Origin: Octopus vulgaris
Lineage: Eukaryota
Length of the DNA stretch: 64,000 nucleotides
NCBI GenBank assembly: GCA_951406725.2
Contig: OX597826.1
Location: forward strand, 65,472,001 to 65,536,000
Direction of reading: 5' to 3'
Under the pieces are notes generated by a model. The model did not search any database, was not told the origin of the DNA, and saw only the letters and a program-made list of their open reading frames with translations. How positions within the stretch are numbered: position 1 is the stretch's first letter; every line of letters begins with the position of its first letter. Below, in pieces: positions 1,793-33,910 of the stretch. The position numbers were made by a program, and so were the translations under genes.

Positions 1793-2010
1793 CTTCCGAC
1801 GCCGATGGACGTACGTGAATCAGCTCTGTGAGTTTTGTGCCAATTTTATTGGAAATTTTTTAATAAGCTTGATTATTTTTTAATATTTTTGTAGCCAAAC
1901 CGACCGGCTTCTTGCGGAGCTCGTCGGTTGGGCGAAATTTTGCCCCATTCGGGGTGAAATTACTGTCTATCCTTTTGAAATTGACATTTTTTGCACACAC
2001 ACATTACAAA

Positions 2011-3043
2011 ATGGCACTAAAACGAGCTGCTGGCTCTTCCCTCCTTCTTGCAACACCCCCTACAAGAACAAAAAAAAATAACGTCACGGGTTACGTACAA
2101 CCCATTTCAGGCCGTAAAAGGCAACAAAGCTCCTCCTTCCGAACCGGAGAGCACGCGCTCGGTTCAAAAGGAGAATGCATGCCAGGACGTCGCGTTCGAC
2201 GTCACTCTTGATTTCCCCCCTCTGCCTTCAACAAGTGATGCTGTACCGAAGGGGGAGGTAAAGAAAATTATAACAGACACAAACACAGACAAGAACCAAC
2301 AAAAAACTGTAAAAGCTTCTAACGATTTTGCTTCTGCTGCGAAGCAAATTTCGGAAGATGTAGAAATTACAATGGAGGACATAAAAATGGCACAAGATTT
2401 GTTGAGAAAGGAGGGGAACAGTGTTTTCCTCAACACACCTCAACAACTCACACAAGAAACAAGCAAAAGAACAATCTTTTATAAAGTCTTCGAAAAGAAA
2501 ACTAAAAGATTGTTTAACGCCACACCACAACAGTTGGAGATGGCTCTGAAGCCCATTTGGGGCCAGAAGAGCTATGTGACAAGAGGAAGCGATTTGGAAC
2601 CGTGGAGGTTCGCTTCCCAACAGAGGAGCTTGCAAGGGCAAACGCCATTTCGCCCTTGCAAAATGAACATTTGTTCCTCGTCCCGACGTACCTCGGGCGT
2701 AAGGTACAAAAAATAACCATAAGCACAATACCCCCCGAACAGAAAATCTCATGGCTAGTGGCGGCTGTCCTCTATGGCATAGAGGACACTGCCACTATTC
2801 TGAATGTTCGGAGGGTACGAGAAAAGAACTGGTCAGGCATGGGTATTCAACTGCTGGTACAGATCCAGCAGGAAAACATCAATGCCATACCTGACTTTGT
2901 CATCTTGCTGGATGGGACCAGGCTAAATGTTATTGTAGAGGGGCGAAAGCCAAAATGTTTCCTCTGCAGTAGCGAAAGCCACCTAAAAAGGGACTGCCCC
3001 ATTCAAAAAAAGAGAATGGAGGAGTATAGCAAGAGGCAGCAGC

Positions 3044-3074
<31 letters not shown>

Positions 3075-3897
3075 CAAGCAACAACAACAGAAACAACAAA
3101 AACAGCAAGAAAAACCAAAGGCTGCCACACCACCAACACCATCACCAACACCAGCACCAAGACGAACAACACCACCTCCAACAACAACAACCACCACCAA
3201 ACCAACACCGACAACCACCACCAAACCAACACCGACACCAGTACCTCGAAGGTCGACAGCAGCGACATCAACAGTAACAGGAGCAGCGGCACCACCGATA
3301 CCGGCGGAACCTAAAACTTTTCGTCCTGCTACTGAAGCAGACCCCTCAACCATTCCTTTGCCGGATGAAGAGATCTCGGATTGTGCGAGCTCGGATTCCA
3401 ACAAAGGAGAATGGAATATAGTACCTCCAAAAAAGAAAAGGAGGAAAAAACAAAAAGTTTTACAGGGGAAGCACGAACAAATAGTATTTCCCAACATCAA
3501 CAACAACATCAACAACAACACACACTCACAACAACAAACAACAACAACAACACTTTCGACACCACTACTGCCACTACCACAGACACAAACAAACGCAGAC
3601 ACAATTACAGACACGATTACAGCAGTGAATACAAGAAACCAGGAACTGGTTGAGTATTTGAAAAACAAAACAAGCACAAACATTACAGATTTCATAATAC
3701 CTACACACAACACACCACCAGCACACATTCTCACAATAAAAATAAACAAAACAGTGTACAATGAAATAAAACAAATATTCCCTAACGATGTGGGATCGTT
3801 AGGGAAAAGTTTCTCTCAGAAACTTTACAAAAATATTATTGAAGCACCCGTGCAAAAGCACAAGGGAGCCACCCCCACCACCAACAACAGTAAGTAG
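2011..3897 (+). CDS. ORF1 nucleic-acid-binding protein, copy 1 (frameshifts at ~2070 and ~2585)
   Basis: MALKRAAG start is homologous to copy-3 MAMKRTVG; CX2CX4HX4C knuckle CFLCSSESHLKRDC; polyQ and P/T-rich linker; basic PPKKKRRKK motif. Reconstructed from ORFs 1912-2211, 2048-2716 and 2557-3897. Confidence 0.8.
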
Positions 3898-3936
3898 AGC
3901 CTTTTTTCTCCTTTTTTTTTCCCTAATTCTTGAGAC

Positions 3937-6900
3937 ATGGCAAATCTTAGAATCGGTTGCTTGAATGTGAGAGGCCTCGGGTCACCTTGGAAACAGGGTC
4001 ACCTGTTAAACGACCTGAGGTTTCATGATGTGGATATAGCAGCCATCAGTGAAACCAGGCTCTCCGACCCGCAGGAACTCGCAGCCCTTTTCGGCGGATA
4101 CGAGATATTTCTATCTCCGTGTCGGCCGGGAGCGGGCGGTGGTGGTACTGCGGTGTTGTTTCGGAAGGGCCTGGACCTGAAAATAAGAACAGTCTTCTTG
4201 GATCCGGAAGGTAAGTTGGTGGTCCTCGACGTGGACGGTAGTGACGGCGGTGCTTTCAGACTGCTGGCTGCCTACGCTCCGACAGGAGCAGGGCAGTCGG
4301 ATTATTTCAAACGTCTGGAAGTTTTCCTGGGAACGTCACGCACTCTAGTACTAGTTGGGGATTGGAACGCTGTCTTAGACGAACGTTTCGATCGGGTGGG
4401 CAGGGGAGCGTCTGTTAGGAGAGGGGGTGGGTGCAAGAGCCTCGCCAACCTACTCGGCCGCTTTCAGCTGTCCGACAGGTTTCGACTAGACAACCCGAAT
4501 GTGCCAATGTGGACTTGGACAAACCGCATCGGGTCGTCTAGATCGTACTTAGATAGAGTGTTTTGTAGGCCAGCGGATAAGGACAGCGTAGGGTGTCCAC
4601 AATTCCACCTAGTCGAATATACGGACCACAAATTAGTGATCTGTACGGTCGACTTAGATAGGCTACATAGACAGGGACCCGGCTACTGGAAGCTGAACGC
4701 GTCGTTAACGGCGTGCAAAGCTTACAGAGACCGGATTAGTTTACTAGTTAAGCGGGCGCTCACGGGGGCAATCATCAACAACAACTGGTGGTTTGCCCTC
4801 AAGAGAGCAATTAGAGTAGAGTCGATTAGGTATAGTAAGACTCTAGCTATTGAACGTAGGAAGAGAGAGCGGGATTTAGTTAAGAAACTAGACGAGGCTC
4901 TTGACACTGGCATCGCGACCGACGTGTTGGCGGCAAGGTTGGCCCTCGACCAACACTTCGACGCCAAACACGAAGGCTGCGTTGTCAGAGCTAAGGCACG
5001 TTCGCTAAGCGGGGAGGGGACTAGAGCCGCTCGATGGGCCCGCGTGGCGGAGGCGAAGCGAGGCAACAGAGCAACCATTCGGTCTTTGGTGGACCAGAAC
5101 GGGCGCGAGGTTACCCAACCGAAGCAGATGTGTACGGTACTTCAGCGGCACTTTGCTCAACTGTTTGGGACGAGCGGTGGAACGGACACCAACGGTACAG
5201 ACTTCGGTGTGTACCTGGACGGACTGCCGCAACTCTCGGACAGCGAGGCAGAGTGCTGCGAAGGACCGATATCTGCCTGGGAAGTACAGGAAGCGATGAA
5301 GAGTTGCACGAGAGGTAGATCGCCGGGTTTGGATGGTCTGCCCTACGAGCTTTACTTTTCAATGCCAGACTTGTTTGCGGACCTGTTGGCAAACGTCTAC
5401 TGCAACTGGCAGCAAAACGGGAGAATTCCTGCTTTTGTCTGTCGAGGGGTGGTGGCTTTGCTAAAGAAGGACCCAAACAAGGGGGACGTTATAGGCAATT
5501 TCCGGCCCATCACTCTGCTCAATGCAGAGTTGAAGATTTTGGCCAAGGTGCTAGCCAAGAGATTGGCGCTTGTCGTGGACAAGCTGGTCGGCGGGACGCA
5601 GACATGCGCCGTGCCGACCAGGTCGATACACGACAACCTCCATCTCATGCGCTACATCATAGAGAGGGTGGGTAACGACGCTGGCGCGGGTGGGGCTTTG
5701 ATCAACTTGGATCAGAGTAAAGCCTTCGATAGGGTCGACCATCGGTACCTGGCAGCTGTCCTCAAGGCAGCCGGCTTCGGTCCAGTCTTCCGCGGGTGGA
5801 TCGCTGCTTTATACAGCAACATCTGCTCGGTGATACGGGTGAACGGTCACCTTTCGGAACCGTTCGACATCTCGCGTTCGGTCCGCCAAGGATGCCCTCT
5901 CTCCTCCCTCTTGTACATTTTGACTCTCGAGCCATTACTGCGCAAGTTGGAGGCTTTGAGGGGCATCCCGCGCGATCTAGGAGGCGGAAACAGCGTGTCT
6001 GCTTATGCCGACGACGTCACCGTGGTGGTGTCGAGCCACAGGCACATTGGCCTGATTGGCGAGACGCTAAACCAGTACGAAGCGGTGACAGGGGCAAAGA
6101 TTAACGCGGAAAAGTCTGTGGGCTTGCAACTGGGCACCTGGAGAGGCAAGCCCATGCCGTCCAACAGCGTCGTAGGGCGCTGGACAGACGGACCCGTTAA
6201 ACTGCTCGGGGTCTGGTTCGGTCCGGACCTCCAGGTGGATAAGAACTGGGAAGAGGTGACGAGCAGGGTGGCACGTCTCACCCAGAAATGGGCCGAGAGG
6301 AAGCTGTCCCTGAAAGGTCGAGCGGAGGTGGCGAATGCGTACATCGCATCCGTCATCTATTACCGCTTGACCGTCGTCCCTTGTCCCGACCGCTGGTTGG
6401 CCAAGCTGGTACACCTGCTCTTCGACTTTTTGTGGAAGGGTCAGGTGCCACTGGTCAGGCGATCCATCTGCTGTCAACGACCGCTGAACGGAGGCCTTGG
6501 AATGCCGTGGTTGCTGTTGCGCAGACATGCGCTCAGGCTGCGGCATCTCAAGCGCTTCCTAGACGGTGAACAGGTGTGGTCGTCTTTTGTCAGACGCGAT
6601 TTTCCGCAGCTCGTCTCTTTGACGGAGCTGCAGACCTGGATCAAACGTAGACCGAGAAAGGGCGCTTGGCACCTCGAGTGCCGTCAAGCCCTCTCCGCCC
6701 TCCACCAGGCGGGCAATGCGGTCGGTTACAGCTCCACTCTAGCGTTCTATAGAGGGTTAGTGGAGGAAAAATGCGACGACGTTCTCGGGGAAACTCTAGG
6801 CGTTGAAGACGACGAACTGAGCGGTCTGTTCGGGAGGACTTTCGGGCCGGGGCCGATGGATAATTTCCAGAGGTCTCTCGCCTGGCAGTGCTACCGAGGG

Positions 6901-7371
6901 GCTCTGCCTGTTCGAGATAAACTCTACCGGCACGGAAGTGCCGTCAGCCGGGCCTGCCCGAGGTGTTGCCAGGACGACGAAACCGTTCTGCACGCACTCG
7001 TCCAGTGCCCGAGTATTGCTGAAATATGGGTTTATGTCGAACAGCTACTGTCACGTGTAGGACGGATCCGACTATCGGCCGAATCCATAGTGAAGATTGC
7101 CCCGCCGACCTCCTTTAACAAGGAGGGCGAGGCCGTTTTCTTGTGCCTTGTGGCTGTGGCGAAAGAAGTCGTGTGGTGGACTCGTTTGAAAGGGCTAAAG
7201 TCAGACACTTTCCTCTTTGGTCAAGGCCTCATCAACTTTTTCAAGTTTCACTTGAAAAGGAAGATGAGGTTAGAGAGGAAAGTGCTGTCCGATAGCAAGT
7301 TTTATGAAAGGTGGGTGAATTGTGCGAGACTGGCCTGTATAAATGGACCAGTTCTCAGGTTTCGCCTGTGA
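3937..7371 (+). CDS. ORF2 polyprotein (APE endonuclease, reverse transcriptase, C-terminal zinc finger), intact 1144 aa
   Basis: APE motifs CLNVRGL, ISET, VGDWN, SYLDRVF, TDH; WKLN; RT motifs SPGLDG, FRPITLLN, DQSKAFDRV, VRQGCPLS, YADD; C-terminal CPRC..ETVLHALVQC. Confidence 0.96.
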   Translation: MANLRIGCLNVRGLGSPWKQGHLLNDLRFHDVDIAAISETRLSDPQELAALFGGYEIFLSPCRPGAGGGGTAVLFRKGLDLKIRTVFLDPEGKLVVLDVDGSDGGAFRLLAAYAPTGAGQSDYFKRLEVFLGTSRTLVLVGDWNAVLDERFDRVGRGASVRRGGGCKSLANLLGRFQLSDRFRLDNPNVPMWTWTNRIGSSRSYLDRVFCRPADKDSVGCPQFHLVEYTDHKLVICTVDLDRLHRQGPGYWKLNASLTACKAYRDRISLLVKRALTGAIINNNWWFALKRAIRVESIRYSKTLAIERRKRERDLVKKLDEALDTGIATDVLAARLALDQHFDAKHEGCVVRAKARSLSGEGTRAARWARVAEAKRGNRATIRSLVDQNGREVTQPKQMCTVLQRHFAQLFGTSGGTDTNGTDFGVYLDGLPQLSDSEAECCEGPISAWEVQEAMKSCTRGRSPGLDGLPYELYFSMPDLFADLLANVYCNWQQNGRIPAFVCRGVVALLKKDPNKGDVIGNFRPITLLNAELKILAKVLAKRLALVVDKLVGGTQTCAVPTRSIHDNLHLMRYIIERVGNDAGAGGALINLDQSKAFDRVDHRYLAAVLKAAGFGPVFRGWIAALYSNICSVIRVNGHLSEPFDISRSVRQGCPLSSLLYILTLEPLLRKLEALRGIPRDLGGGNSVSAYADDVTVVVSSHRHIGLIGETLNQYEAVTGAKINAEKSVGLQLGTWRGKPMPSNSVVGRWTDGPVKLLGVWFGPDLQVDKNWEEVTSRVARLTQKWAERKLSLKGRAEVANAYIASVIYYRLTVVPCPDRWLAKLVHLLFDFLWKGQVPLVRRSICCQRPLNGGLGMPWLLLRRHALRLRHLKRFLDGEQVWSSFVRRDFPQLVSLTELQTWIKRRPRKGAWHLECRQALSALHQAGNAVGYSSTLAFYRGLVEEKCDDVLGETLGVEDDELSGLFGRTFGPGPMDNFQRSLAWQCYRGALPVRDKLYRHGSAVSRACPRCCQDDETVLHALVQCPSIAEIWVYVEQLLSRVGRIRLSAESIVKIAPPTSFNKEGEAVFLCLVAVAKEVVWWTRLKGLKSDTFLFGQGLINFFKFHLKRKMRLERKVLSDSKFYERWVNCARLACINGPVLRFRL

Positions 7372-7893
7372 TTTCAAAGAAAAAGGTAATGTAAAAGGAG
7401 AAGAAAGGGGACTCTCTACACCCCTTTTTTTGACCAGGCTCCCGTTGGCTTTTGTAGGGTTTTTTCACCAGGAACCTTTCGAAACGTCTCCCCCTTTTGG
7501 GAGTTTTTCATTGTTTTAATAATCATTGTTTTAAAGATTTTTACACGGATTTTTTTAACAAACGGACAAAACCCTTTGTAACCTTTCGTCCTGTCTTGTC
7601 CCTTTATGTAATCATGCGTGTCAGCCCTTGTGGCCAATAAAAAAGAATTGATTATTATTATTATTATTATTATTCCTTCCGACGCCGATGGACGTACGTG
7701 AATCAGCTCTGTGAGTTTTGTGCCAATTTTATTGGAAATTTTTTAATAAGCTTGAATATTTTTTAATATTTTTGTAGCCAAACCGACCGGCTTCTTGCGG
7801 AGCTCGTCGGTTGGGCGAAATTTTGCCCCATTCGGGGTGAAATTACTGTCTATCCTTTTGAAATTGACATTTTTTGCACACACACATTACAAA

Positions 7894-8919
7894 ATGGCAC
7901 TAAAACGAGCTGCTGGCTCTTCCCTCCTTCTTGCAACACCCCCTACAAGAACAAAAAAAAATAACGTCACGGGTTACGTACAACCCATTTCAGGCCGTAA
8001 AAGGCAACAAAGCTCCTCCTTCCGAACCGGAGAGCACGCGCTCGGTTCAAAAGGAGAATGCATGCCAGGACGTCGCGTTCGACGTCACTCTTGATTTCCC
8101 CCTCTGCCTTCAACAAGTGATGCTGTACCGAAGGGGAGGTAAAGAAAATTATAACAGACACAAACACAGACAAGAACCAACAAAAAACTGTAAAAGCTTC
8201 TAACGATTTTGCTTCTGCTGCGAAGCAAATTTCGGAAGATGTAGAAATTACAATGGAGGACATAAAAATGGCACAAGATTTGTTGAGAAAGGAGGGGAAC
8301 AGTGTTTTCCTCAACACACCTCAACAACTCACACAAGAAACAAGCAAAAGAACAATCTTTTATAAAGTCTTCGAAAAGAAAACTAAAAGATTGTTTAACG
8401 CCACACCACAACAGTTGGAGATGGCTCTGAAGCCCATTTGGGGCCAGAAGAGCTATGTGACAAGAGGGAAGCGATTTGGAACCGTGGAGGTTCGCTTCCC
8501 AACAGAGGAGCTTGCAAGGGCAAACGCCATTTCGCCCTTGCAAAATGAACATTTGTTCCTCGTCCCGACGTACCTCGGGCGTAAGGTACAAAAAATAACC
8601 ATAAGCACAATACCCCCGAACAGAAAATCTCATGGCTAGTGGCGGCTGTCCTCTATGGCATAGAGGACACTGCCACTATTCTGAATGTTCGGAGGGTACG
8701 AGAAAAGAACTGGTCAGGCATGGGTATTCAACTGCTGGTACAGATCCAGCAGGAAAACATCAATGCCATACCTGACTTTGTCATCTTGCTGGATGGGACC
8801 AGGCTAAATGTTATTGTAGAGGGGCGAAAGCCAAAATGTTTCCTCTGCAGTAGCGAAAGCCACCTAAAAGGGACTGCCCCATTCAAAAAAAGAGAATGGA
8901 GGAGTATAGCAAGAGCAGC

Positions 8920-8950
<31 letters not shown>

Positions 8951-9772
8951 CAAGCAACAACAACAGAAACAACAAAAACAGCAAGAAAAACCAAAGGCTG
9001 CCACACCACCAACACCATCACCAACACCAGCACCAAGACGAACAACACCACCTCCAACAACAACAACCACCACCAAACCAACACCGACAACCACCACCAA
9101 ACCAACACCGACACCAGTACCTCGAAGGTCGACAGCAGCGACATCAACAGTAACAGGAGCAGCGGCACCACCGATACCGGCGGAACCTAAAACTTTTCGT
9201 CCTGCTACTGAAGCAGACCCCTCAACCATTCCTTTGCCGGATGAAGAGATCTCGGATTGTGCGAGCTCGGATTCCAACAAAGGAGAATGGAATATAGTAC
9301 CTCCAAAAAGAAAAGGAGGAAAAAACAAAAAGTTTTACAGGGGAAGCACGAACAAATAGTACTTCCCAACATCAACAACAACATCAACAACAACACACAC
9401 TCACAACAACAAACAACAACAACAACACTTTCGACACCACTACTGCCACTACCACAGACACAAACAAACACAGACACAATTACAGACACGATTACAGCAG
9501 TGAATACAAGAAACCAGGAACTGGTTGAGTATTTGAAAAACAAAACAAGCACAAACATTACAGATTTCATAATACCTACACACAACACACCACCAGCACA
9601 CATTCTCACAATAAAAATAAACAAAACAGTGTACAATGAAATAAAACAAATATTCCCTAACGATGTGGGATCGTTAGGGAAAAGTTTCTCTCAGAAACTT
9701 TACAAAAATATTATTGAAGCACCCGTGCAAAAGCACAAGGGAGCCACCCCCACCACCAACAACAGTAAGTAG
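7894..9772 (+). pseudogene. ORF1, copy 2 (several short deletions, mostly in homopolymers; possibly sequencing error)
   Basis: Fragments 7931-8203, 8253-8639, 8639-9190 and 9257-9772 match copy-1 ORF1. Confidence 0.75.
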
Positions 9773-9810
9773 AGCCTTTTTTCTCCTTTTTTTTCCCTAA
9801 TTCTTGAGAC

Positions 9811-12800
9811 ATGGCAAATCTTAGAATCGGTTGCTTGAATGTGAGAGGCCTCGGGTCACCTTGGAAACAGGGTCACCTGTTAAACGACCTGAGGTTTCAT
9901 GATGTGGATATAGCAGCCATCAGTGAAACCAGGCTCTCCGACCCGCAGGAACTCGCAGCCCTTTTCGGCGGATACGAGATATTTCTATCTCCGTGTCGGC
10001 CGGGAGCGGGCGGTGGTGGTACTGCGGTGTTGTTTCGGAAGGGCCTGGACCTGAAAATAAGAACAGTCTTCTTGGATCCGGAAGGTAAGTTGGTGGTCCT
10101 CGACGCGGACGGTAGTGACGGCGGTGCTTTCAGACTGCTGGCTGCCTACGCTCCGACAGGAGCAGGGCAGTCGGATTATTTCAAACGTCTGGAAGTTTTC
10201 CTGGGAACGTCACGCACTCTAGTACTAGTTGGGGATTGGAACGCTGTCTTAGACGAACGTTTCGATCGGGTGGGCAGGGGAGCGTCTGTTAGGAGAGGGG
10301 GTGGGTGCAAGAGCCTCGCCAACCTACTCGGCCGCTTTCAGCTGTCCGACAGGTTTCGACTAGACAACCCGAATGTGCCAATGTGGACTTGGACAAACCG
10401 CATCGGGTCGTCTAGATCGTACTTAGATAGAGTGTTTTGTAGGCCAGCGGATAAGGACAGCGTAGGGTGTCCACAATTCCACCTAGTCGAATATACGGAC
10501 CACAAATTAGTGATCTGTACGGTCGACTTAGATAGGCTACATAGACAGGGACCCGGCTACTGGAAGCTGAACGCGTCGTTAACGGCGTGCAAAGCTTACA
10601 GAGACCGGATTAGTTTACTAGTTAAGCGGGCGCTCACGGGGGCAATCATCAACAACAACTGGTGGTTTGCCCTCAAGAGAGCAATTAGAGTAGAGTCGAT
10701 TAGGGATAGTAAGACTCTAGCTATTGAACGTAGGAGAGAGAGCGGGATTTAGTTAAGAAACTAGACGAGGCTCTTGACACTGGCATCGCGACCGACGTGT
10801 TGGCGGCAAGGTTGGCCCTCGACCAACACTTCGACGCCAAACACGAAGGCTGCGTTGTCAGAGCTAAGGCACGTTCGCTAAGCGGGGAGGGGACTAGAGC
10901 CGCTCGATGGGCCCGCGTGGCGGAGGCGAAGCGAGGCAACAGAGCAACCATTCGGTCTTTGGTGGACCAGAACGGGCGCGAGGTTACCCAACCGAAGCAG
11001 ATGTGTACGGTACTTCAGCGGCACTTTGCTCAACTGTTTGGGACGAGCGGTGGAACGGACACCAACGGTACAGACTTCGGTGTGTACCTGGACGGACTGC
11101 CGCAACTCTCGGACAGCGAGGCAGAGTGCTGCGAAGGACCGATATCTGCCTGGGAAGTACAGGAAGCGATGAAGAGTTGCACGAGAGGTAGATCGCCGGG
11201 TTTGGATGGTCTGCCCTACGAGCTTTACTTTTCAATGCCAGACTTGTTTGCGGACCTGTTGGCAAACGTCTACTGCAACTGGCAGCAAAACGGGAGAATT
11301 CCTGCTTTTGTCTGTCGAGGGGTGGTGGCTTTGCTAAAGAAGGACCCAAACAAGGGGGACGTTATAGGCAATTTCCGGCCCATCACTCTGCTCAATGCAG
11401 AGTTGAAGATTTTGGCCAAGGTGCTAGCCAAGAGATTGGCGCTTGTCGTGGACAAGCTGGTCGGCGGGACGCAGACATGCGCCGTGCCGACCAGGTCGAT
11501 ACACGACAACCTCCATCTCATGCGCTACATCATAGAGAGGGTGGGTAACGACGCTGGCGCGGGTGGGGCTTTGATCAACTTGGATCAGAGTAAAGCCTTC
11601 GATAGGGTCGACCATCGGTACCTGGCAGCTGTCCTCAAGGCAGCCGGCTTCGGTCCAGTCTTCCGCGGGTGGATCGCTGCTTTATACAGCAACATCTGCT
11701 CGGTGATACGGGTGAACGGTCACCTTTCGGAACCGTTCGACATCTCGCGTTCGGTCCGCCAAGGATGCCCTCTCTCCTCCCTCTTGTACATTTTGACTCT
11801 CGAGCCATTACTGCGCAAGTTGGAGGCTTTGAGGGGCATCCCGCGCGATCTAGGAGGCGGAAACAGCGTGTCTGCTTATGCCGACGACGTCACCGTGGTG
11901 GTGTCGAGCCACAGGCACATTGGCCTGATTGGCGAGACGCTAAACCAGTACGAAGCGGTGACAGGGGCAAAGATTAACGCGGAAAAGTCTGTGGGCTTGC
12001 AACTGGGCACCTGGAGAGGCAAGCCCATGCCGTCCAACAGCGTCGTAGGGCGCTGGACAGACGGACCCGTTAAACTGCTCGGGGTCTGGTTCGGTCCGGA
12101 CCTCCAGGTGGATAAGAACTGGGAAGAGGTGACGAGCAGGGTGGCACGTCTCACCCAGAAATGGGCCGAGAGGAAGCTGTCCCTGAAAGGTCGAGCGGAG
12201 GTGGCGAATGCGTACATCGCATCCGTCATCTATTACCGCTTGACCGTCGTCCCTTGTCCCGACCGCTGGTTGGCCAAGCTGGTACACCTGCTCTTCGACT
12301 TTTTGTGGAAGGGTCAGGTGCCACTGGTCAGGCGATCCATCTGCTGTCAACGACCGCTGAACGGAGGCCTTGGAATGCCGTGGTTGCTGTTGCGCAGACA
12401 TGCGCTCAGGCTGCGGCATCTCAAGCGCTTCCTAGACGGTGAACAGGTGTGGTCGTCTTTTGTCAGACGCGATTTTCCGCAGCTCGTCTCTTTGACGGAG
12501 CTGCAGACCTGGATCAAACGTAGACCGAGAAAGGGCGCTTGGCACCTCGAGTGCCGTCAAGCCCTCTCCGCCCTCCACCAGGCGGGCAATGCGGTCGGTT
12601 ACAGCTCCACTCTAGCGTTCTATAGAGGGTTAGTGGAGGAAAAATGCGACGACGTTCTCGGGGAAACTCTAGGCGTTGAAGACGACGAACTGAGCGGTCT
12701 GTTCGGGAGGACTTTCGGGCCGGGGCCGATGGATAATTTCCAGAGGTCTCTCGCCTGGCAGTGCTACCGAGGGGCTCTGCCTGTTCGAGATAAACTCTAC

Positions 12801-13244
12801 CGGCACGGAAGTGCCGTCAGCCGGGCCTGCCCGAGGTGTTGCCAGGACGACGAAACCGTTCTGCACGCACTCGTCCAGTGCCCGAGTATTGCTGAAATAT
12901 GGGTTTATGTCGAACAGCTACTGTCACGTGTAGGACGGATCCGACTATCGGCCGAATCCATAGTGAAGATTGCCCCGCCGACCTCCTTTAACAAGGAGGG
13001 CGAGGCCGTTTTCTTGTGCCTTGTGGCTGTGGCGAAAGAAGTCGTGTGGTGGACTCGTTTGAAAGGGCTAAAGTCAGACACTTTCCTCTTTGGTCAAGGC
13101 CTCATCAACTTTTTCAAGTTTCACTTGAAAAGGAAGATGAGGTTAGAGAGGAAAGTGCTGTCCGATAGCAAGTTTTATGAAAGGTGGGTGAATTGTGCGA
13201 GACTGGCCTGTATAAATGGACCAGTTCTCAGGTTTCGCCTGTGA
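9811..13244 (+). pseudogene. ORF2, copy 2 (single -1 frameshift at ~10735)
   Basis: ORFs 9811-10752 and 10797-13244 together match copy-1 ORF2; AGGAAGAGA reads AGGAGAGA. Confidence 0.9.
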
Positions 13245-13781
13245 TTTCAAAGAAAAAGGTAATGTAAAAGGAGAAGAAAGGGGACTCTCTACACCCCCTT
13301 TTTGACCAGGCTCCCGTTGGCTTTTGTAGGGTTTTTTCCACCGGGAACATTTCGAGACGTCTCCCCCTTTTGGGAGTTTTTCATTGTTGAATTTTATAAG
13401 TTGTTATAAAGATTTTTACTCGATGTTTTAAAAAAACGGACAAAACCCTTTGTAACCTTTCGTCCTGTCTTGTCCCTTCATGTAATCATGCGTGTCAGCC
13501 CTTGTGGCCAATAAAAAAGAATTGATTATTATTATTATTATTATTATTCCTTCCGACGCCGTTAGACGTACGTGAATCAGCTCCGTGAATTTGACACCAA
13601 TTTCATTGGAAATCTATTAATAGGTTTGAATATTTTTTAATATTTCTGTAGCCAAACCGACCGGCTTCTTGCGGAGCTCGTCGGTTGGGCGAAATTTTGC
13701 CCCATTCGGGGTGAAATTGCGTTTGAAAATTTTGAACATTTGACATTTTTCAACATTTTGAATATTACAACAAGAAAAAAC

Positions 13782-15640
13782 ATGGCTATGAAGCGAACAG
13801 TTGGCTGTTCCTTCCTTCAAAATACACTCCCTCCGCAAACACGCACAACTCGTACAAAACACCCACTTCACGCCTTAAAAGGCAACAAAGATTCTCCTTC
13901 CGAACCGCAGAGCACGCGCTCGGTTCAAAAGGAAAATGCAAGTCATGACGTCGCGTTCGACGTAATTCTTGATTTTCCCCCTCTGCCTTCACCCAATGCT
14001 TTGGTAAGGAAGGAGGAGGGAGAAAAAACAAATACAAAAATCATCACAAACATTGACACGGAGATAAAAGAAAAAACTTCCAACAATTTTGCTTCTGCTG
14101 CGAAGCAAATTTCGGAGGAAGTTAAGATAACTCTAGAAGATGTGAAAAGAGCGAAGGAATTGTTAAGGAAGGATGGCAATGGTATCTTCCTCAATACTCC
14201 ACAAGAGGTGATTGAAAGCACCAACAAGCAAACAATAATTTACAAAGTTTTCGACAGAAAACTAAAAAGAATAACAAATGCCACACCCCAACAGTTGGAG
14301 ATAGCTCTAAAGCCCATTTGGGCCCAAAAGAGCTACGTAACCAAGGGGAAGCGTTTTGGAACCGTGGAGGTTCGCTTCCCAACAGAGGAGCTGGCAAGGG
14401 CGAACGCCATTTCGCCCTTGCAAACTGAGAATTTGTTACTAATTCCAACCCACCTCGGGCGAAGAGTTACAAAAATAAAAATCGACCTCGTCCCCCCTGA
14501 ATTAAATATGTCATGGCTGGTGGCAGCTGTCCTCTATGATATAGAGGACACTACCACCATTCTAGATGTCAGGAGAGTGAGGGCGAAAAACTGGTTGGGG
14601 ATGGGAGTGCTGCTTCTTGCGCAAATTCAGCAAGAGAATATAAGTAAAGTCCCTGATTTCGTAAGTTTGCCGGACGGCACTAGGCTAAACGTTGCTGTGG
14701 AGGGGCGAAAGCCAAAATGCTTTCTCTGCAGCAGCGAAAGCCACTTAAAGAGGGACTGTCCCATTCACAAAAAGAGGATGGAGGCTTTCAGCAAGAGGCA
14801 GCAGCAGCAACAACAACAACAACAACAACAACACAAGCAACAACAACAGAAACAACAAAAACAGCAAGAAACACCAAAGGCTGCCACACCACCAACACCA
14901 TCACCAACACCAGCACCAAGACGAGCAACACCACCTCCAACAACAACAACCACCACCAAACCAACACCGACAACCACCACCAAACCAACACCGACACCAG
15001 TACCTCGAAGGTCGACAGCAGCGACATCAACAGTAACAGGAGCAGCGGCACCACCGATACCGGTGGAACCAGAAACTTTTCGTCCTGCTACTGAAGCAGA
15101 CCCTCAACCATTCCTTTGCCGGATGAAGAGATCTCGGATTGTGCGAGCTCTGATTCCAACAAAGGAGAATGGAGTATAGTGCCTCCAAAGAAGAAAAGGA
15201 GGAAGAAACAAAAAGATTTACAGGGGAAGCACGAACAAATAGTGCTTCCCAACATCAACAACAACAACAACAACAACACACACTCACAACAACAAACAAC
15301 AACAACACTTTCGACACCACTACTGCCACTGCCACACACACAAACACACACAGACACAATTACATCAATAAACACAAAGAACCAAAAACTAGTGGAGTAC
15401 TTAAAAAACAAAACTAGTACAAATATAACCGATTTCATCATACCAACACAAAACACACCACCAGCACACATTCTCACAATAAAAATAAATGCAAAATCAT
15501 ATGATGAAATCAAACAAATATTCCCTAACGATGTGGGATCGCTAGGGAAAAGTTTCTCGAAGAAACTTTATAAAAACATTGTGGAAGCACCCGTGCAAAA
15601 GCACAAGGGAGCCACCCCCACCACCAACAACAGTAAGTAG
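13782..15640 (+). CDS. ORF1, copy 3 (one -1 frameshift in a C run at ~15101)
   Basis: ORFs 13740-15179 and 15116-15640; ATG at 13782; CCHC knuckle present. Confidence 0.82.
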
Positions 15641-15678
15641 AGCCTTTTTTTCTCCTTTTTTTCCCCCTACTTTGAGAC

Positions 15679-18600
15679 ATGGCAAATCTTAGAATCGGTT
15701 GCTTGAATGTGAGAGGCCTCGGGTCACCTTGGAAACAGGGTCACCTGTTAAACGACCTGAGGTTTCATGATGTGGATGTAGCAGCCATCAGTGAAACCAG
15801 GCTCTCCGACCCGCAGGAACTCGCAGCCCTTTTCGGCGGATACGAGATATTTCTATCTCCGTGTCGGCCGGGAGCGGGCGGTGGTGGTACTGCGGTGTTG
15901 TTTCGGAAGGGCCTGGACCTGAAAATAAGGACAGTCTTCTTGGATCCGGAAGGTAAGTTGGTGGTCCTCGACGTCGACGGTAGTGACGGCGGTGCTTTCA
16001 GACTGCTGGCTGCCTACGCTCCGACAGGAGCAGGGCAGTCGGATTATTTCAAACGTCTGGAAGTTTTCCTGGGAACGTCACGCACTCTAGTACTAGTTGG
16101 GGATTGGAACGCTGTCTTAGACGAACGTTTCGATCGGGTGGGCAGGGGAGCGTCTGTTAGGAGAGGGGGAGGGTGCAAGAGCCTCGCCAACCTACTCGGC
16201 CGCTTTCAGCTGTCCGACAGGTTTCGACTAGACAACCCGAATGTGCCAATGTGGACTTGGACAAACCGCATCGGGTCGTCTAGATCGTACTTAGATAGAG
16301 TGTTTTGTAGGCCAGCGGATAAGGACAGCGTAGGGTGTCCACAATTCCACCTAGTCGAATATACGGACCACAAATTAGTGATCTGTACGGTCGACTTAGA
16401 TAGGCTACATAGACAGGGACCCGGCTACTGGAAGCTGAACGCGTCGTTAACGGCGTGCAAAGCTTACAGAGACCGGATTAGTTTACTAGTTAAGCGGGCG
16501 CTCACGGGGGCAATCATCAACAACAACTGGTGGTTTGCCCTCAAGAGAGCAATTAGAGTAGAGTCGATTAGGTATAGTAAGACTCTAGCTATTGAACGTA
16601 GGAAGAGAGAGCGGGATTTAGTTAAGAAACTAGACGAGGCTCTTGACACTGGCATCGCGACCGACGTGTTGGCGGCAAGGTTGGCCCTCGACCAACACTT
16701 CGACGCCAAACACGAAGGCTGCGTTGTCAGAGCTAAGGCACGTTCGCTAAACGGGGAGGGGACTAGAGCCGCTCGATGGGCCCGCGTGGCGGAGGCGAAG
16801 CGAGGCAACAAAGCAACCATTCGGTCTTTGGTGGACCAGAACGGGCGCGAGGTTACCCAACCGAAGCAGATGTGTACGGTGCTTCAGCGGCACTTTGCTC
16901 AACTGTTTGGGACGAGCGGTGGAACGGACACCAACGGTACAGACTTCGGTGTGTACCTGGACGGACTGCCGCAACTCTCGGACAGCGAGGCGGAGTGCTG
17001 CGAAGGACCGATATCTGCCTGGGAAGTACAGGAAGCGATGAAGAGTTGCACGAGAGGTAGATCGCCGGGTTTGGATGGTCTGCCCTACGAGCTTTACTTT
17101 TCGATGCCAGACTTGTTTGCGGACCTGTTGGCAAACGTCTACTGCAACTGGCAGCAAAACGGGAGAATTCCTGCTTTTGTCTGTCGAGGGGTGGTGGCTT
17201 TGCTAAAGAAGGACCCAAACAAGGGGGACGTTATAGGGAATTTCCGGCCCATCACTCTGCTCAATGCAGAGTTGAAGATTTTGGCCAAGGTGCTAGCCAA
17301 GAGATTGGCGCTTGTCGTGGACAAGCTGGTCGGCGGGACGCAGACATGCGCCGTGCCGACCAGGTCGATACACGACAACCTCCATCTCATGCGCTACATC
17401 ATAGAGAGGGTGGGTAACGACGCTGGCGCGGGTGGGGCTTTGATCAACTTGGATCAGAGTAAAGCCTTCGATAGGGTCGACCATCAGTACCTGGCAGCTG
17501 TCCTCAAGGCAGCCGGCTTCGGTCCAGTCTTCCGCGGGTGGATCGCTGCTTTATACAGCAACATCTGCTCGGTGATACGGGTGAACGGTCACCTTTCGGA
17601 ACCGTTCGACATCTCGCGTTCGGTCCGCCAAGGATGCCCTCTCTCCTCCCTCTTGTACATTTTGACTCTCGAGCCATTACTGCGCAAGTTGGAGGCTTTG
17701 AGGGGCATCCCGCGCGATCTAGGAGGCGGAAACAGCGTGTCTGCTTATGCCGACGACGTCACCGTGGTGGTGTCGAGCCACAGGCACATTAGCCTGATTG
17801 GCGAGACGCTAAACCAGTACGAAGCGGTGACAGGGGCAAAGATTAACGCGGAAAAGTCTGTGGGCTTGCAACTGGGCACCTGGAGAGGCAAGCCCATGCC
17901 GTCCAACAGCGTCGTAGGGCGCTGGACAGACGGACCCGTTAAACTGCTCGGGGTCTGGTTCGGTCCGGACCTCCAGGTGGATAAGAACTGGGAAGAGGTG
18001 ACGAGCAGAGTGGCACGTCTCACCCAGAAATGGGCCGAGAGGAAGCTGTCCCTGAAAGGTCGAGCGGAGGTGGCGAATGCGTACATCGCATCCGTCATCT
18101 ATTACCGCTTGACCGTCGTCCCTTGTCCCAACCGCTGGTTGGCCAAGCTGGTACGTCTGCTCTTCGACTTTTTGTGGAAGGGTCAGGTGCCACTGGTCAG
18201 GCGATCCATCTGCTGTCAACGACCGCTGAACGGAGGCCTTGGAATGCCGTGGTTGCTGTTGCTCAGGCTGCGGCATCTCAAGCGCTTCCTAGACGGTGAA
18301 CAGGTGTGGTCGTCTTTTGTCAGACGCGATTTTCCGCAGCTCGTCTCTTTGACGGAGCTGCAGACCTGGATCAAACGTAGACCGAGAAAGGGCGCTTGGC
18401 ACCTCGAGTGCCGTCAAGCCCTCTCCGCCCTCCACCAGGCGGGCAATGCGGTCGGTTACAGCTCCACTCTAGCGTTCTATAGAGGGTTAGTGGAGGAAAA
18501 ATGCGACGACGTTCTCGGGGAAACTCTAGGCGTTGAAGACGACGAACTGAGCAGTCTGTTCGGGAGGACTTTCGGGCCGGGGCCGATGGATAATTTCCAG

Positions 18601-19101
18601 AGGTCTCTCGCCTGGCAGTGCTACCGAGGGGCTCTGCCTGTTCGAGATAAACTCTACCGGCACGGAAGTGCCGTCAGCCGGGCCTGCCCGAGGTGTTGCC
18701 AGGACGACGAAACCGTTCTGCACGCACTCGTCCAGTGCCCGAGTATTGCTGAAATATGGGTTTATGTCGAACAGCTACTGTCACGTGTAGGACGGATCCG
18801 ACTATCGGCCGAATCCATAGTGAAGATTGCCCCGCCGACCTCCTTTAACAAGGAGGGCGAGGCCGTTTTCTTGTGCCTAGTGGCTGTGGCGAAAGAGGTC
18901 GTGTGGTGGACTCGTTTAAAAGGGCTAAAGACAGACACTTTCCTCTTTGGTCAAGGCCTCATCAACTTTTTCAAGTTTCACTTGAAAAGGAAGATGAGGT
19001 TAGAGAGGAAAGTGCTGTCCGATAGCAAGTTTTATGAAAGGTGGGTGAATTGTGCGAGACTGGCCTGTATAAATGGACCAGTTCTCAGGTTTCGCCTGTG
19101 A
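15679..19101 (+). CDS. ORF2 (APE-RT-zinc finger), copy 3, open 1140 aa
   Basis: All catalytic motifs retained; 12-bp in-frame deletion (RRHA lost) at ~18262. Confidence 0.95.
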   Translation: MANLRIGCLNVRGLGSPWKQGHLLNDLRFHDVDVAAISETRLSDPQELAALFGGYEIFLSPCRPGAGGGGTAVLFRKGLDLKIRTVFLDPEGKLVVLDVDGSDGGAFRLLAAYAPTGAGQSDYFKRLEVFLGTSRTLVLVGDWNAVLDERFDRVGRGASVRRGGGCKSLANLLGRFQLSDRFRLDNPNVPMWTWTNRIGSSRSYLDRVFCRPADKDSVGCPQFHLVEYTDHKLVICTVDLDRLHRQGPGYWKLNASLTACKAYRDRISLLVKRALTGAIINNNWWFALKRAIRVESIRYSKTLAIERRKRERDLVKKLDEALDTGIATDVLAARLALDQHFDAKHEGCVVRAKARSLNGEGTRAARWARVAEAKRGNKATIRSLVDQNGREVTQPKQMCTVLQRHFAQLFGTSGGTDTNGTDFGVYLDGLPQLSDSEAECCEGPISAWEVQEAMKSCTRGRSPGLDGLPYELYFSMPDLFADLLANVYCNWQQNGRIPAFVCRGVVALLKKDPNKGDVIGNFRPITLLNAELKILAKVLAKRLALVVDKLVGGTQTCAVPTRSIHDNLHLMRYIIERVGNDAGAGGALINLDQSKAFDRVDHQYLAAVLKAAGFGPVFRGWIAALYSNICSVIRVNGHLSEPFDISRSVRQGCPLSSLLYILTLEPLLRKLEALRGIPRDLGGGNSVSAYADDVTVVVSSHRHISLIGETLNQYEAVTGAKINAEKSVGLQLGTWRGKPMPSNSVVGRWTDGPVKLLGVWFGPDLQVDKNWEEVTSRVARLTQKWAERKLSLKGRAEVANAYIASVIYYRLTVVPCPNRWLAKLVRLLFDFLWKGQVPLVRRSICCQRPLNGGLGMPWLLLLRLRHLKRFLDGEQVWSSFVRRDFPQLVSLTELQTWIKRRPRKGAWHLECRQALSALHQAGNAVGYSSTLAFYRGLVEEKCDDVLGETLGVEDDELSSLFGRTFGPGPMDNFQRSLAWQCYRGALPVRDKLYRHGSAVSRACPRCCQDDETVLHALVQCPSIAEIWVYVEQLLSRVGRIRLSAESIVKIAPPTSFNKEGEAVFLCLVAVAKEVVWWTRLKGLKTDTFLFGQGLINFFKFHLKRKMRLERKVLSDSKFYERWVNCARLACINGPVLRFRL

Positions 19102-22013: not shown

Positions 22014-22218
22014 TAATTTAGGGTATCTAAGAGATACCACCACGCTGGAAATAGCAGCCAAAACTTGACTCTAAAACCACATTAAATGTAATTTTTTTGC
22101 TAGTTTATTTTGTCTCTTGTCTTCTCTCCTGGTGCTGTATCAACATTTAATGTGGTTTTAGAGTCAAGTTTTGGCTGCTATTTCCAGCGTGGTGGTATAT
22201 CTTAGATACCCTAAATTA
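22014..22218. repeat. 76-bp inverted repeat with 53-bp spacer
   Basis: Arms 22014-22089 and 22143-22218, one mismatch. Confidence 0.9.
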
Positions 22219-32927: not shown

Positions 32928-32962
32928 GTTTAACGTTTCGAGCGGAGCTCTTCGTCAGAAAC
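32928..32962 (-). ncRNA. Minimal type-I hammerhead ribozyme (Penelope-like-element type)
   Basis: GUUU CUGACGA A GAGC UCC GCUC GAA ACGU U AAAC: stem I 4 bp, conserved core, stem II 4 bp, palindromic loopless stem III, GUU cleavage triplet. Confidence 0.72.
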
Positions 32963-33085: not shown

Positions 33086-33516
33086 CAAACACTGAAATTC
33101 CTAAAAAAAAAAGACTAGCAATGCATCGTTTTAGGTCTCGGAAAAATGTAAGTATTTGTTCGGCAAGTTCCGTATAAAATTTTTTATTTCTTTAATGTTT
33201 ATTTTTTGCAGCTGAACAGTGAAAAACACGGTCGCACACACGCATTCATTGTCTTTCATTTGCAATATCGACTTGATCAGTGACATACAGACATGAATAT
33301 ACATGTTTTATGTTTTCACGAATCGCTTATATTTTTGTGTATATATGTGCATGTATGTATATTTCTCTGTGTATGTATGTGTGTGCGTGTAGAAAGAGAG
33401 TGTGAGAGCTGAAAAAGGAAGTAAAATAATAAAAATAATTGCAGCGTGGATGGTGTTTGTAAGCCATTTAAGAAACACACAAAAACCGTTAGATTCACTT
33501 CGACATATAAATTTAA

Positions 33517-33567
33517 TTTGTCAAAATATTTTCGTCGCTTTGAGACCGCGACCTGTTCACTGACAAA
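33517..33567 (-). ncRNA. Minimal hammerhead-like fold with G3:C8 core variant
   Basis: UUUGUCA GUGAACA G GUCGC GGUCUCAAA GCGAC GAA AAUAUU U UGACAAA: stem I 7 bp, stem II 5 bp, palindromic stem III. Confidence 0.6.
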
Positions 33568-33910
33568 ATTCCGTGTTTTACGGAAATTACCGAATACTTT
33601 CACATTTCCGAGATCAAAAACGATGGATTGCCAAAGGGCAATGGCAGACACAAACACACACACGCGTGTGTTATTCGCCCATGTATGTGTGTGCATTGTT
33701 GTCGCCTATATTGCTTGACAACTTGAGATTAGCTTTCTTGGGTTCCTCCAAGAAAGATGCACTTATGGAAATATTGACCTCTCTGGCATACACCAAAGTT
33801 TTATAAGGCGTTTCATTTTCTCATTTTACCAGAAGGCAAGAAACATCGCCCAGGTGCATACTCAATGAAGTGTATGGATGCAGCATATTTCAAAACACCG
33901 TTGCTGCTTG

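What the first reader, a model, noticed from the sequence alone, without database searches (positions are those of the whole stretch)
33517..33567. Natural G3:C8-swapped hammerhead candidate that CUGANGA searches would miss
Seen: 7-bp stem I, core GUGAACA in place of CUGANGA, one extra purine before stem II (as in the neighbouring hammerhead), 5-bp stem II, GAA, palindromic stem III AAUAUU and a UUU cleavage triplet. Known: C3 and G8 form a Watson-Crick pair in the active hammerhead fold, and the C3G/G8C double change partly rescues activity. Inference: both positions changing in a compensatory way while all stems stay intact suggests selection on a functional variant ribozyme in a second Penelope-like repeat family. 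UUU is a weak triplet, so activity is uncertain.
Basis: partly seen in the sequence, partly recalled or inferred. Interest (0 to 1): 0.7.

Follow-up and report, generated by a model that had tools for sequence, protein, structure and literature searches.

The report
Swapped-core hammerhead in octopus retrotransposon
This short stretch is one of thousands of end-pieces of a Penelope-like jumping gene whose hammerhead-shaped RNA has the core C-G pair flipped to G-C in most copies while sister elements keep C-G, a paired change that likely preserves slow self-cutting, which has not been tested.

Summary
The motif is real (minus strand, 33567-33517) and is the family consensus, not a private mutation: at least 7,002 genomic matches carry the G3/C8 core. 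It lies in the terminal repeat (pLTR) of a Penelope-like retroelement. One full-length copy has identical G3:C8 motifs 4.26 kb apart around an RT-like/GIY-YIG ORF, and ORF-bearing copies are about 98% identical. Sister families in the same genome keep the same scaffold with C3:G8. Five pairs, including 3:8, changed on both sides while silent ORF sites are near saturation, which supports selection on the active-site pair. Cleavage is not shown. Copies come from uncut RNA (1 of 84 5' ends and 0 of 48 3' ends at the cut site; 1 of 30 in a C3:G8 control). G3 can mispair with U17, and this window's copy is predicted to misfold. I found natural U3:A8, but no natural G3:C8, in the papers held; four key papers were unavailable. 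This scan has reported the same variant before on other DNA. Verdict: new natural variant of a known ribozyme.

The parts
33432..33575 (-). Truncated pLTR remnant of a Penelope-like element (element positions about +9 to +150, counting from the common 5' end)
   Evidence: blastn of the window against family loci, 92-95% identity; alignment to the family majority
33580..33588 (+). 9-nt inverted (snap-back) piece of the element's 5' end; longer inverted 5' pieces are common in other copies
   Evidence: sequence, fold, copies
33561..33567 (-). Stem I, 5' strand
33554..33560 (-). Core positions 3-9, G3 U4 G5 A6 A7 C8 A9 (G3 = 33560, C8 = 33555)
   Evidence: 94 of the first 100 listed matches carry G3+C8; 138 of 155 aligned copies
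33553..33553 (-). Extra G between A9 and G10.1
   Evidence: a described feature of PLE minimal hammerheads (PMC4209133)
33534..33552 (-). Stem II (5 bp, G10.1-C11.1) with 9-nt loop; the loop differs among subfamilies, the stem does not
33531..33533 (-). G12 A13 A14
33525..33530 (-). Palindromic stem III (A15.1-U16.1, A15.2-U16.2, 2-nt loop); predicted to pair only between two copies
   Evidence: 6-bp duplex only -0.2 kcal/mol
33523..33524 (-). U17 and the predicted cleavage site (UUU triplet)
   Evidence: hammerhead numbering; U17 in 152 of 155 copies; cleavage not shown
33517..33523 (-). Stem I, 3' strand; A-to-G at position 1.3 (keeps a G.U pair) in 47 of 155 copies
33496..33528 (-). Competing hairpin predicted to sequester stem III and the 3' strand of stem I in this copy
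33436..33467 (-). Start codon and first codons of the element's ORF, cut off here by the 3' end of the insertion
   Evidence: in full-length copy L332 the same ATG opens the ORF
32928..32962 (-). Neighbouring C3:G8 minimal hammerhead of a different repeat family (used as a control)

Best explanation
The stretch is a truncated terminal-repeat copy of a Penelope-like retroelement whose type I minimal hammerhead carries G3:C8 in place of C3:G8, a derived paired change likely kept by selection for the active-site fold and predicted to allow only slow, dimer- or protein-assisted self-cleavage after U17. Shown: the motif, its fixation in the family, its place in both pLTRs of a full-length element 56 nt above the ORF start, and covariation with C3:G8 sister families. 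Inferred: element RNA begins about 16 nt above stem I; two motifs (4.26 kb apart in one transcript, or on two RNAs) would pair through the palindromic stem III; the 2'-OH of C8 would act as general acid while G3:C8 positions it; cutting must be slow or conditional because it would separate the RNA body from the downstream sites where copies end (the presumed RT start sites), and nearly all genomic copies derive from uncut RNA. The copy in this window is likely an inert passenger.
For: Fixation: 7,002 matches with fixed G3/C8 core and free stem II/loop, 0 in the reversed control; with positions 3, 7, 8 free, 2,092 matches, 94 of the first 100 listed G3+C8; 138 of 155 aligned copies. Parent element: L183 open frame of 530 aa with YVDD, CX3CX2C linker and GIY-YIG (PF01541); L332 is pLTR-ORF-pLTR with identical motifs at 4738 and 8999; 23 ORF segments (some are two arms of one insertion) median 98.1% identical. 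Covariation: sister family (53% amino-acid identity, only 33 of 86 fourfold sites identical) has the same scaffold with C3:G8; 4,658 matches of the scaffold without G3, 90 of the first 100 listed C3+G8 (hand count). On a hand-picked alignment of 14 distinct sequences, 3:8 is CG 8, GC 4, other 1; 5 of 13 pairs change on both sides; 87.5% of cells pair versus 21-47% when slid. Loop II differs among subfamilies while stem II is constant. No variant of 5% or more at G3 or C8 is listed in contigs of four runs from four organism labels (2 rows not shown). Literature: in an Anolis PLE hammerhead, single C3G or G8C abolishes cleavage, the double change partly restores it, cleavage needs the PLE protein, and uncut RNA is the main insertion substrate (PMC11167929, section read).
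Against: No cleavage datum. 1 of 84 copies anchored downstream begins at the cut site, and that junction is explained by stem I microhomology; 0 of 48 copies anchored upstream end there. G3.U17 is predicted to extend stem I into an inactive state (P 0.67). The dimer helix is A/U-only (-0.2 kcal/mol). In the window copy stem I falls to P 0.36 at +35 nt and 0.00 at +90 nt. The young, abundant sister family has C9 in place of A9 (77 of the first 100 listed, hand count) and 16 of 25 neighbour-family copies have C4 (hand count), so these elements spread with weakened cores. The 3:8 swap is a single evolutionary event; given both letters change, a pair results by chance one time in three. In one search the count of pairs with two-sided change was reached by 58 of 500 shuffles, and the rows are related and hand-picked.
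Confidence: 0.62

Rival explanations
1. The fold is kept as a structural element (protein-binding, promoter-proximal or RT-positioning structure), catalysis is vestigial, and G3:C8 became fixed by drift through a weakly constrained core.
For: No cut-site ends; sister family thrives with C9; neighbour family with C4; hammerhead mutants do not affect insertion in vitro (PMC11167929); Craig et al. raise the possibility that hammerheads merely parasitize PLEs (PMC8557442, passage).
Against: The 3:8 pair forms only in the catalytically primed fold (PMC3884650, passage); U4, G5, A6, G12, A13, A14 and A15.1-U16.1 stay identical across families whose fourfold sites are 38% identical; the C3:G8 control family also lacks a cut-site pile-up (1 of 30).
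Confidence: 0.25
2. The ribozyme is a deliberately slowed switch between two fates: cut RNA loses its cap and a 22-codon upstream frame that spans the ribozyme and would be translated, while uncut RNA serves as retrotransposition template.
For: The cut site lies 56 nt above the ORF ATG and below an ATG at element +3 whose frame stops just after stem I; copies derive from uncut RNA; 5'-UTR hammerhead cleavage drives cap-independent translation in RNA viruses (PMC13725137, abstract only).
Against: No translation or RNA-end data; I did not see an equivalent upstream ATG in the sister family's sequence before stem I (by eye); analogy comes from fungal and plant systems.
Confidence: 0.1
3. Chance resemblance or a one-off mutated copy of a canonical hammerhead.
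For: None beyond the shortness of the motif.
Against: 0.017 expected hits per shuffled window; thousands of copies with the same core; homologous position in sister pLTRs.
Confidence: 0.03

Closest known systems
Minimal type I hammerheads (min-HHR) of metazoan Penelope-like elements (Cervera and de la Pena 2014, PMC4209133; main text parts 1-2 of 4 and supplement file 2 parts 1-2 of 3 read)
   Same: In pLTRs; extra nucleotide between 9 and 10.1; G10.1-C11.1; short palindromic stem III; U17 occurs in many listed examples; thousands of dispersed single copies, some in inverted pairs; low activity expected.
   Different: Core is G3/C8. Every core in the text of their Figure S3 begins CUGA or UUGA; their only two-sided covariation is U3-A8.
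Natural U3:A8 hammerheads (PMC4209133; Perreault 2011, PMC3088659, part 3 of 8 read and supplements searched)
   Same: Two-sided natural change of the 3:8 tertiary pair.
   Different: Transitions that keep pyrimidine 3 / purine 8; here two transversions give purine 3 / pyrimidine 8 and allow a G3-N17 mispair.
Engineered C3G/G8C mutant of the Anolis PAc hammerhead (PMC11167929, section 3 part 2 read)
   Same: Same core letters in a PLE hammerhead near the ORF start; partly active; uncut RNA is the insertion template; two internal end points define a tail at the ORF start.
   Different: Laboratory mutant, Poseidon clade, ORF starts inside stem II; here natural and fixed, ORF starts 56 nt below the cut, two end clusters lie about 60 nt apart.
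C-terminal EN+ PLEs with CX2-5CxxC linker (Neptune or Nematis; PMC8557442, passages)
   Same: Single ORF ending in GIY-YIG, linker cysteines, pLTRs, inverted 5' copies, (TA)n targets.
   Different: Clade not resolved here; no reference tree was built.

Membership tests
Hammerhead ribozyme, PLE minimal type I | Stems I and II around the core, type I topology | tested here: met
Hammerhead ribozyme, PLE minimal type I | Literal core consensus C3-U-G-A-N-G8-A | tested here: not met
   G3 and C8; hence filed as a variant, not as a plain member
Hammerhead ribozyme, PLE minimal type I | Watson-Crick complementarity of positions 3 and 8 | tested here: met
   G3+C8 in 138 of 155 copies; CG 8 / GC 4 / other 1 across families
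Hammerhead ribozyme, PLE minimal type I | U4 G5 A6, A9, G12 A13 A14, A15.1-U16.1, G10.1-C11.1 | tested here: met
   (each at least 136 of 155; lowest is C11.1, a CpG site)
Hammerhead ribozyme, PLE minimal type I | NUH cleavage triplet | tested here: met
   UUU; U17 in 152 of 155
Hammerhead ribozyme, PLE minimal type I | Short palindromic stem III for dimer cleavage | tested here: met
   AAUAUU; duplex weak
Hammerhead ribozyme, PLE minimal type I | Present in both pLTRs of a full element | tested here: met
   L332
Hammerhead ribozyme, PLE minimal type I | Site-specific self-cleavage | not testable with these tools
   indirect genomic end mapping negative but also negative in control
Rfam hammerhead models | Covariance-model match | tested here: not met
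   no hammerhead hit at E<=10; the C3:G8 neighbour is missed too
C-terminal EN+ Penelope-like element | GIY-YIG endonuclease at the C-terminus | tested here: met
   PF01541 above its cut-off in L146, L183, L324; not detected in L316
C-terminal EN+ Penelope-like element | Reverse transcriptase domain | tested here: inconclusive
   YVDD and DKS motifs by eye; homologues named 'Reverse transcriptase domain' by UniRef; no Pfam RT hit, no PDB hit
C-terminal EN+ Penelope-like element | pLTR repeats, inverted 5' copies, tail at ORF start, (TA)n targets | tested here: met
Neptune or Nematis clade | CX2-5CxxC linker before GIY-YIG | tested here: met
   CX3CX2C in L146/L183
Neptune or Nematis clade | Placement in an RT phylogeny | not tested
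   no reference sequences at hand

The most novel reading that the evidence does not exclude
G3:C8 is a catalytically active natural hammerhead class invisible to CUGANGA searches, co-adapted with U17 to limit the G3-N17 trap, and octopus Penelope-like elements have repeatedly tuned their ribozyme down (G3:C8, C9, C4) because cutting switches the RNA from retrotransposition template to message.
Probability: 0.18. Interest if true: 0.75.

Novelty: new variant of a known kind. Interest (0 to 1): 0.47.

Why it matters
The 3:8 pair forms only in the catalytically primed hammerhead. A natural two-sided transversion there, fixed in a recently mobile family with C3:G8 sisters as built-in controls, is phylogenetic evidence that PLE minimal hammerheads are selected for the active fold, a point still open in print. 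It gives a matched natural series (G3:C8, C3:G8 with A9, C3:G8 with C9) for testing what these ribozymes do, and shows that descriptors fixed on CUGANGA miss at least 7,000 motifs in one genome. It is not a new ribozyme class: the lab mutant is known to work partly and U3:A8 occurs in nature.

Tried and rejected
Rfam: no hammerhead among the 150 best of 441 window hits shown nor in the two local scans. A tandem cluster at C1:67.34 Mb looked like a full element but is a segmental repeat with no PLE ORF. A second G3:C8 family with a short loop II: 0 matches (a zero is surprising given thousands of copies and I do not lean on it); the A3/C8 copy L254 is a singleton, so it cannot be read as an evolutionary intermediate. 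Metagenome scan: 5 matches, none with the stems. Sequencing runs: no RNA holder listed on record; only contigs were available, which cannot show RNA ends. First pair count used a structure string shifted by one column and is void (redone). Pairwise global alignment of the two pLTRs misregistered the ribozyme and was not used. Whether the common 5' end is a capped start (14 of 20 copies without upstream sequence have a G where the parent has C) or a 3' splice site (branch-point-like, pyrimidine-rich sequence before AG) is unresolved. Literature searches for a natural G3:C8 (supplements) found only engineered cases; Lunse 2017, Przybilski and Hammann 2007, Nelson and Uhlenbeck 2008 and Hammann 2012 were not held, supplement file 1 of PMC4209133 and bioRxiv supplements could not be seen, and gapped alignments could hide the motif from a text search.

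Full report
Observation. A descriptor free at positions 3, 7 and 8 finds only this motif and a C3:G8 neighbour at 32962-32928 in the window. With any Watson-Crick 3:8 pair, stem I >=7 and stem II >=5, 60 shuffles gave 0.017 hits per window.

It is a family consensus. A DNA search of the own genome (G000, 2.8 Gb; a protein that NCBI labels Octopus vulgaris matches it at 100% over 106 residues) returned 53 matches from 40 scored candidates. A 23-letter pattern free at 3, 7 and 8 has 2,092 matches, reversed control 0; 94 of the first 100 listed carry G3 and C8, the other six are single changes. With the core fixed and stem II/loop free there are 7,002 matches. In 155 aligned copies, 138 are G3+C8, 152 have U17, and 61 keep every core letter and stem pair; this set was collected with anchors that partly overlap the motif. 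Individual copies decay like neutral DNA, with CpG hotspots inside stem II. Subfamilies differ in loop II but not in stem II, and 47 of 155 have A-to-G at 1.3, which keeps a G.U pair. Contigs of four runs from four organism labels list no variant of 5% or more at G3 or C8 (two rows not shown; the organisms may be close relatives).

The parent element. Copies that keep upstream sequence (497 matches) led to an ORF on the same strand that ends about 1.1 kb above the motif: L183 has a 530-residue open frame with YVDD, a CX3CX2C linker and GIY-YIG (PF01541). Pfam found no RT domain, so RT rests on motifs and on homologues that UniRef names reverse transcriptase-domain proteins (139 hits). L332 is a complete pLTR-ORF-pLTR with identical G3:C8 motifs at 4738 and 8999; the ORF starts just below the first motif (this copy has a stop and a frameshift further on), so the 3' ends of short copies are the first codons of the ORF. 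Twenty-three ORF segments, some of them two arms of one insertion, are a median 98.1% identical: the family moved recently with this core. Short copies often carry an inverted 5' piece and end in (TA)n, as described for PLEs (PMC8557442, passages). The window copy is such a remnant, element +9 to about +150.

Covariation. A search for the C3/G8 version of the flanks found 27 matches belonging to other families. The closest named homologue, P0006, marks a very young sister family (150 scored matches at 99-100%) whose pLTR holds the same scaffold with C3:G8 at the homologous place and a homologous ORF start. The scaffold without G3 has 4,658 matches, 90 of the first 100 listed being C3+G8 (hand count). 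The two families share 53% of amino acids but only 33 of 86 fourfold-degenerate sites, yet U4, G5, A6, the extra G, most of stem II, GAA and A15.1-U16.1 are identical, and five pairs (3:8, 10.4:11.4, 15.2:16.2 and two in stem I) change on both sides. On 14 distinct hand-picked rows 87.5% of cells pair against 21-47% for slid partners; covariation score exceeded all 500 shuffles, but the count of two-sided pairs was reached by 58 of 500, and rows are related. One row (L131) lacks positions 3-6 through my coordinates. Since all related families seen here have C3:G8, G3:C8 is derived, and it is one event.

Evidence on cleavage. None is direct. Of 84 copies anchored below the cut site, 55 begin between -5 and +19, 4 extend further up, 25 begin later (10 of these are copies of one composite, and a few come from a segmental repeat), and 1 begins at the cut site (+61), where stem I microhomology explains the junction; 46 end at +203 to +209 and 30 at +141 to +152. 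Of 48 copies anchored above the motif none ends at the cut. The C3:G8 neighbour family gives 1 of 30 at its cut site, so the lack is not special to G3:C8, and it matches the Anolis element, where uncut RNA is the main substrate and no RNA-seq ends were found at the site (PMC11167929). Folding adds cautions: G3 pairs with U17 at P 0.67, would pair with C17 at 0.98, and C3 with neither. The sister family has C17 in 18 and U17 in 12 of 30 copies, so the fixed U17 fits co-adaptation but does not prove it; PMC3884650 (passage) reports a G3-C8 variant less active with C17 than G17. The dimer helix is weak. Stem I survives in the young subfamily copy L183 (P 0.70-0.98 at all lengths) but not in the window copy (0.36 at +35 nt, 0.00 at +90 nt).

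Mechanism. Most likely the element RNA starts near +1, folds the hammerhead in its leader and again at its 3' end, and cleaves slowly after U17 when two motifs pair through stem III or the element's protein assists; the general-acid role of the position 8 2'-OH (PMC6155905, PMC8495972, passages) is compatible with C8 held by G3. Because a cut would part the RNA body from the downstream end sites, selection plausibly favours a slow ribozyme. These steps are inference. The main rival is a conserved but non-catalytic structure, helped by the young sister family's C9 (77 of the first 100 listed) and the neighbour's C4 (16 of 25).

Comparison and novelty. It works like the minimal PLE hammerheads of Cervera and de la Pena (PMC4209133) and meets their structural features except the literal C3/G8; membership as a ribozyme awaits cleavage. 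Natural U3:A8 is in print (PMC4209133, PMC3088659); G3:C8 I found only as an engineered mutant (searches; supplements in 81, 83, 84, 87), with four relevant papers not held. No paper on octopus hammerheads appeared among the 4 listed for that search. Earlier notes of this scan describe the same variant on other DNA; they are not independent support. Verdict: real, new natural variant of a known kind, activity untested; interest 0.47.

Noticed in passing
L197, L249-L278 (sister PLE family): A very young, abundant sister family (open frames to 1,312 aa, tandem spacing about 4.6 kb) has C in place of the nearly universal A9; older members keep A9.
   Followed up: partly
window 32928-32962 (-); L219-L248: Neighbour hammerhead family (501 exact matches of a downstream 20-mer) has C4 instead of U4 in 16 of 25 copies that reach the core; link to an ORF not tested.
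   Followed up: partly
L183:8036, 8075, 8083: Contigs of three runs guessed to be RNA show A>G at two sites (4-21%) and T>C at another (2-12%), against under 0.5% A>G in a large run of the same organism label; a fourth guessed-RNA run does not. Suggests A-to-I editing of copies transcribed on both strands; no matched DNA of the same individual.
   Followed up: partly
L183:7944-7964; element +1: The common 5' end follows a branch-point-like, pyrimidine-rich stretch ending in AG, and 14 of 20 short copies carry an untemplated G before it: capped start or intron acceptor, unresolved.
   Followed up: partly
element +3 to +71 (partly window 33513-33575, -): A 22-codon upstream frame spans the ribozyme in the family majority and stops just after stem I.
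   Followed up: no
L054, L056, L068, L070, L077, L087, L101, L118, L123, L130: Ten copies share one inverted-junction structure and flanks, i.e. a composite palindromic unit that has itself been multiplied.
   Followed up: no
window 2000-19100 (+): Three tandem copies of a two-ORF non-LTR retrotransposon (endonuclease-RT frames of about 1,140 aa, one split), period about 5.9 kb.
   Followed up: no
window 22040-22192: Near-perfect inverted repeat of about 150 bp, probably a MITE.
   Followed up: no
window 35800-40300: Satellite of interleaved 9-nt and 22-nt units with internal inversions; beyond 40 kb the window is about 13% GC microsatellite-rich DNA.
   Followed up: no
L181:1927-4370: A different PLE (RT plus C-terminal GIY-YIG, frames of 500 and 312 aa) lies directly upstream of a truncated G3:C8-family copy.
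   Followed up: no
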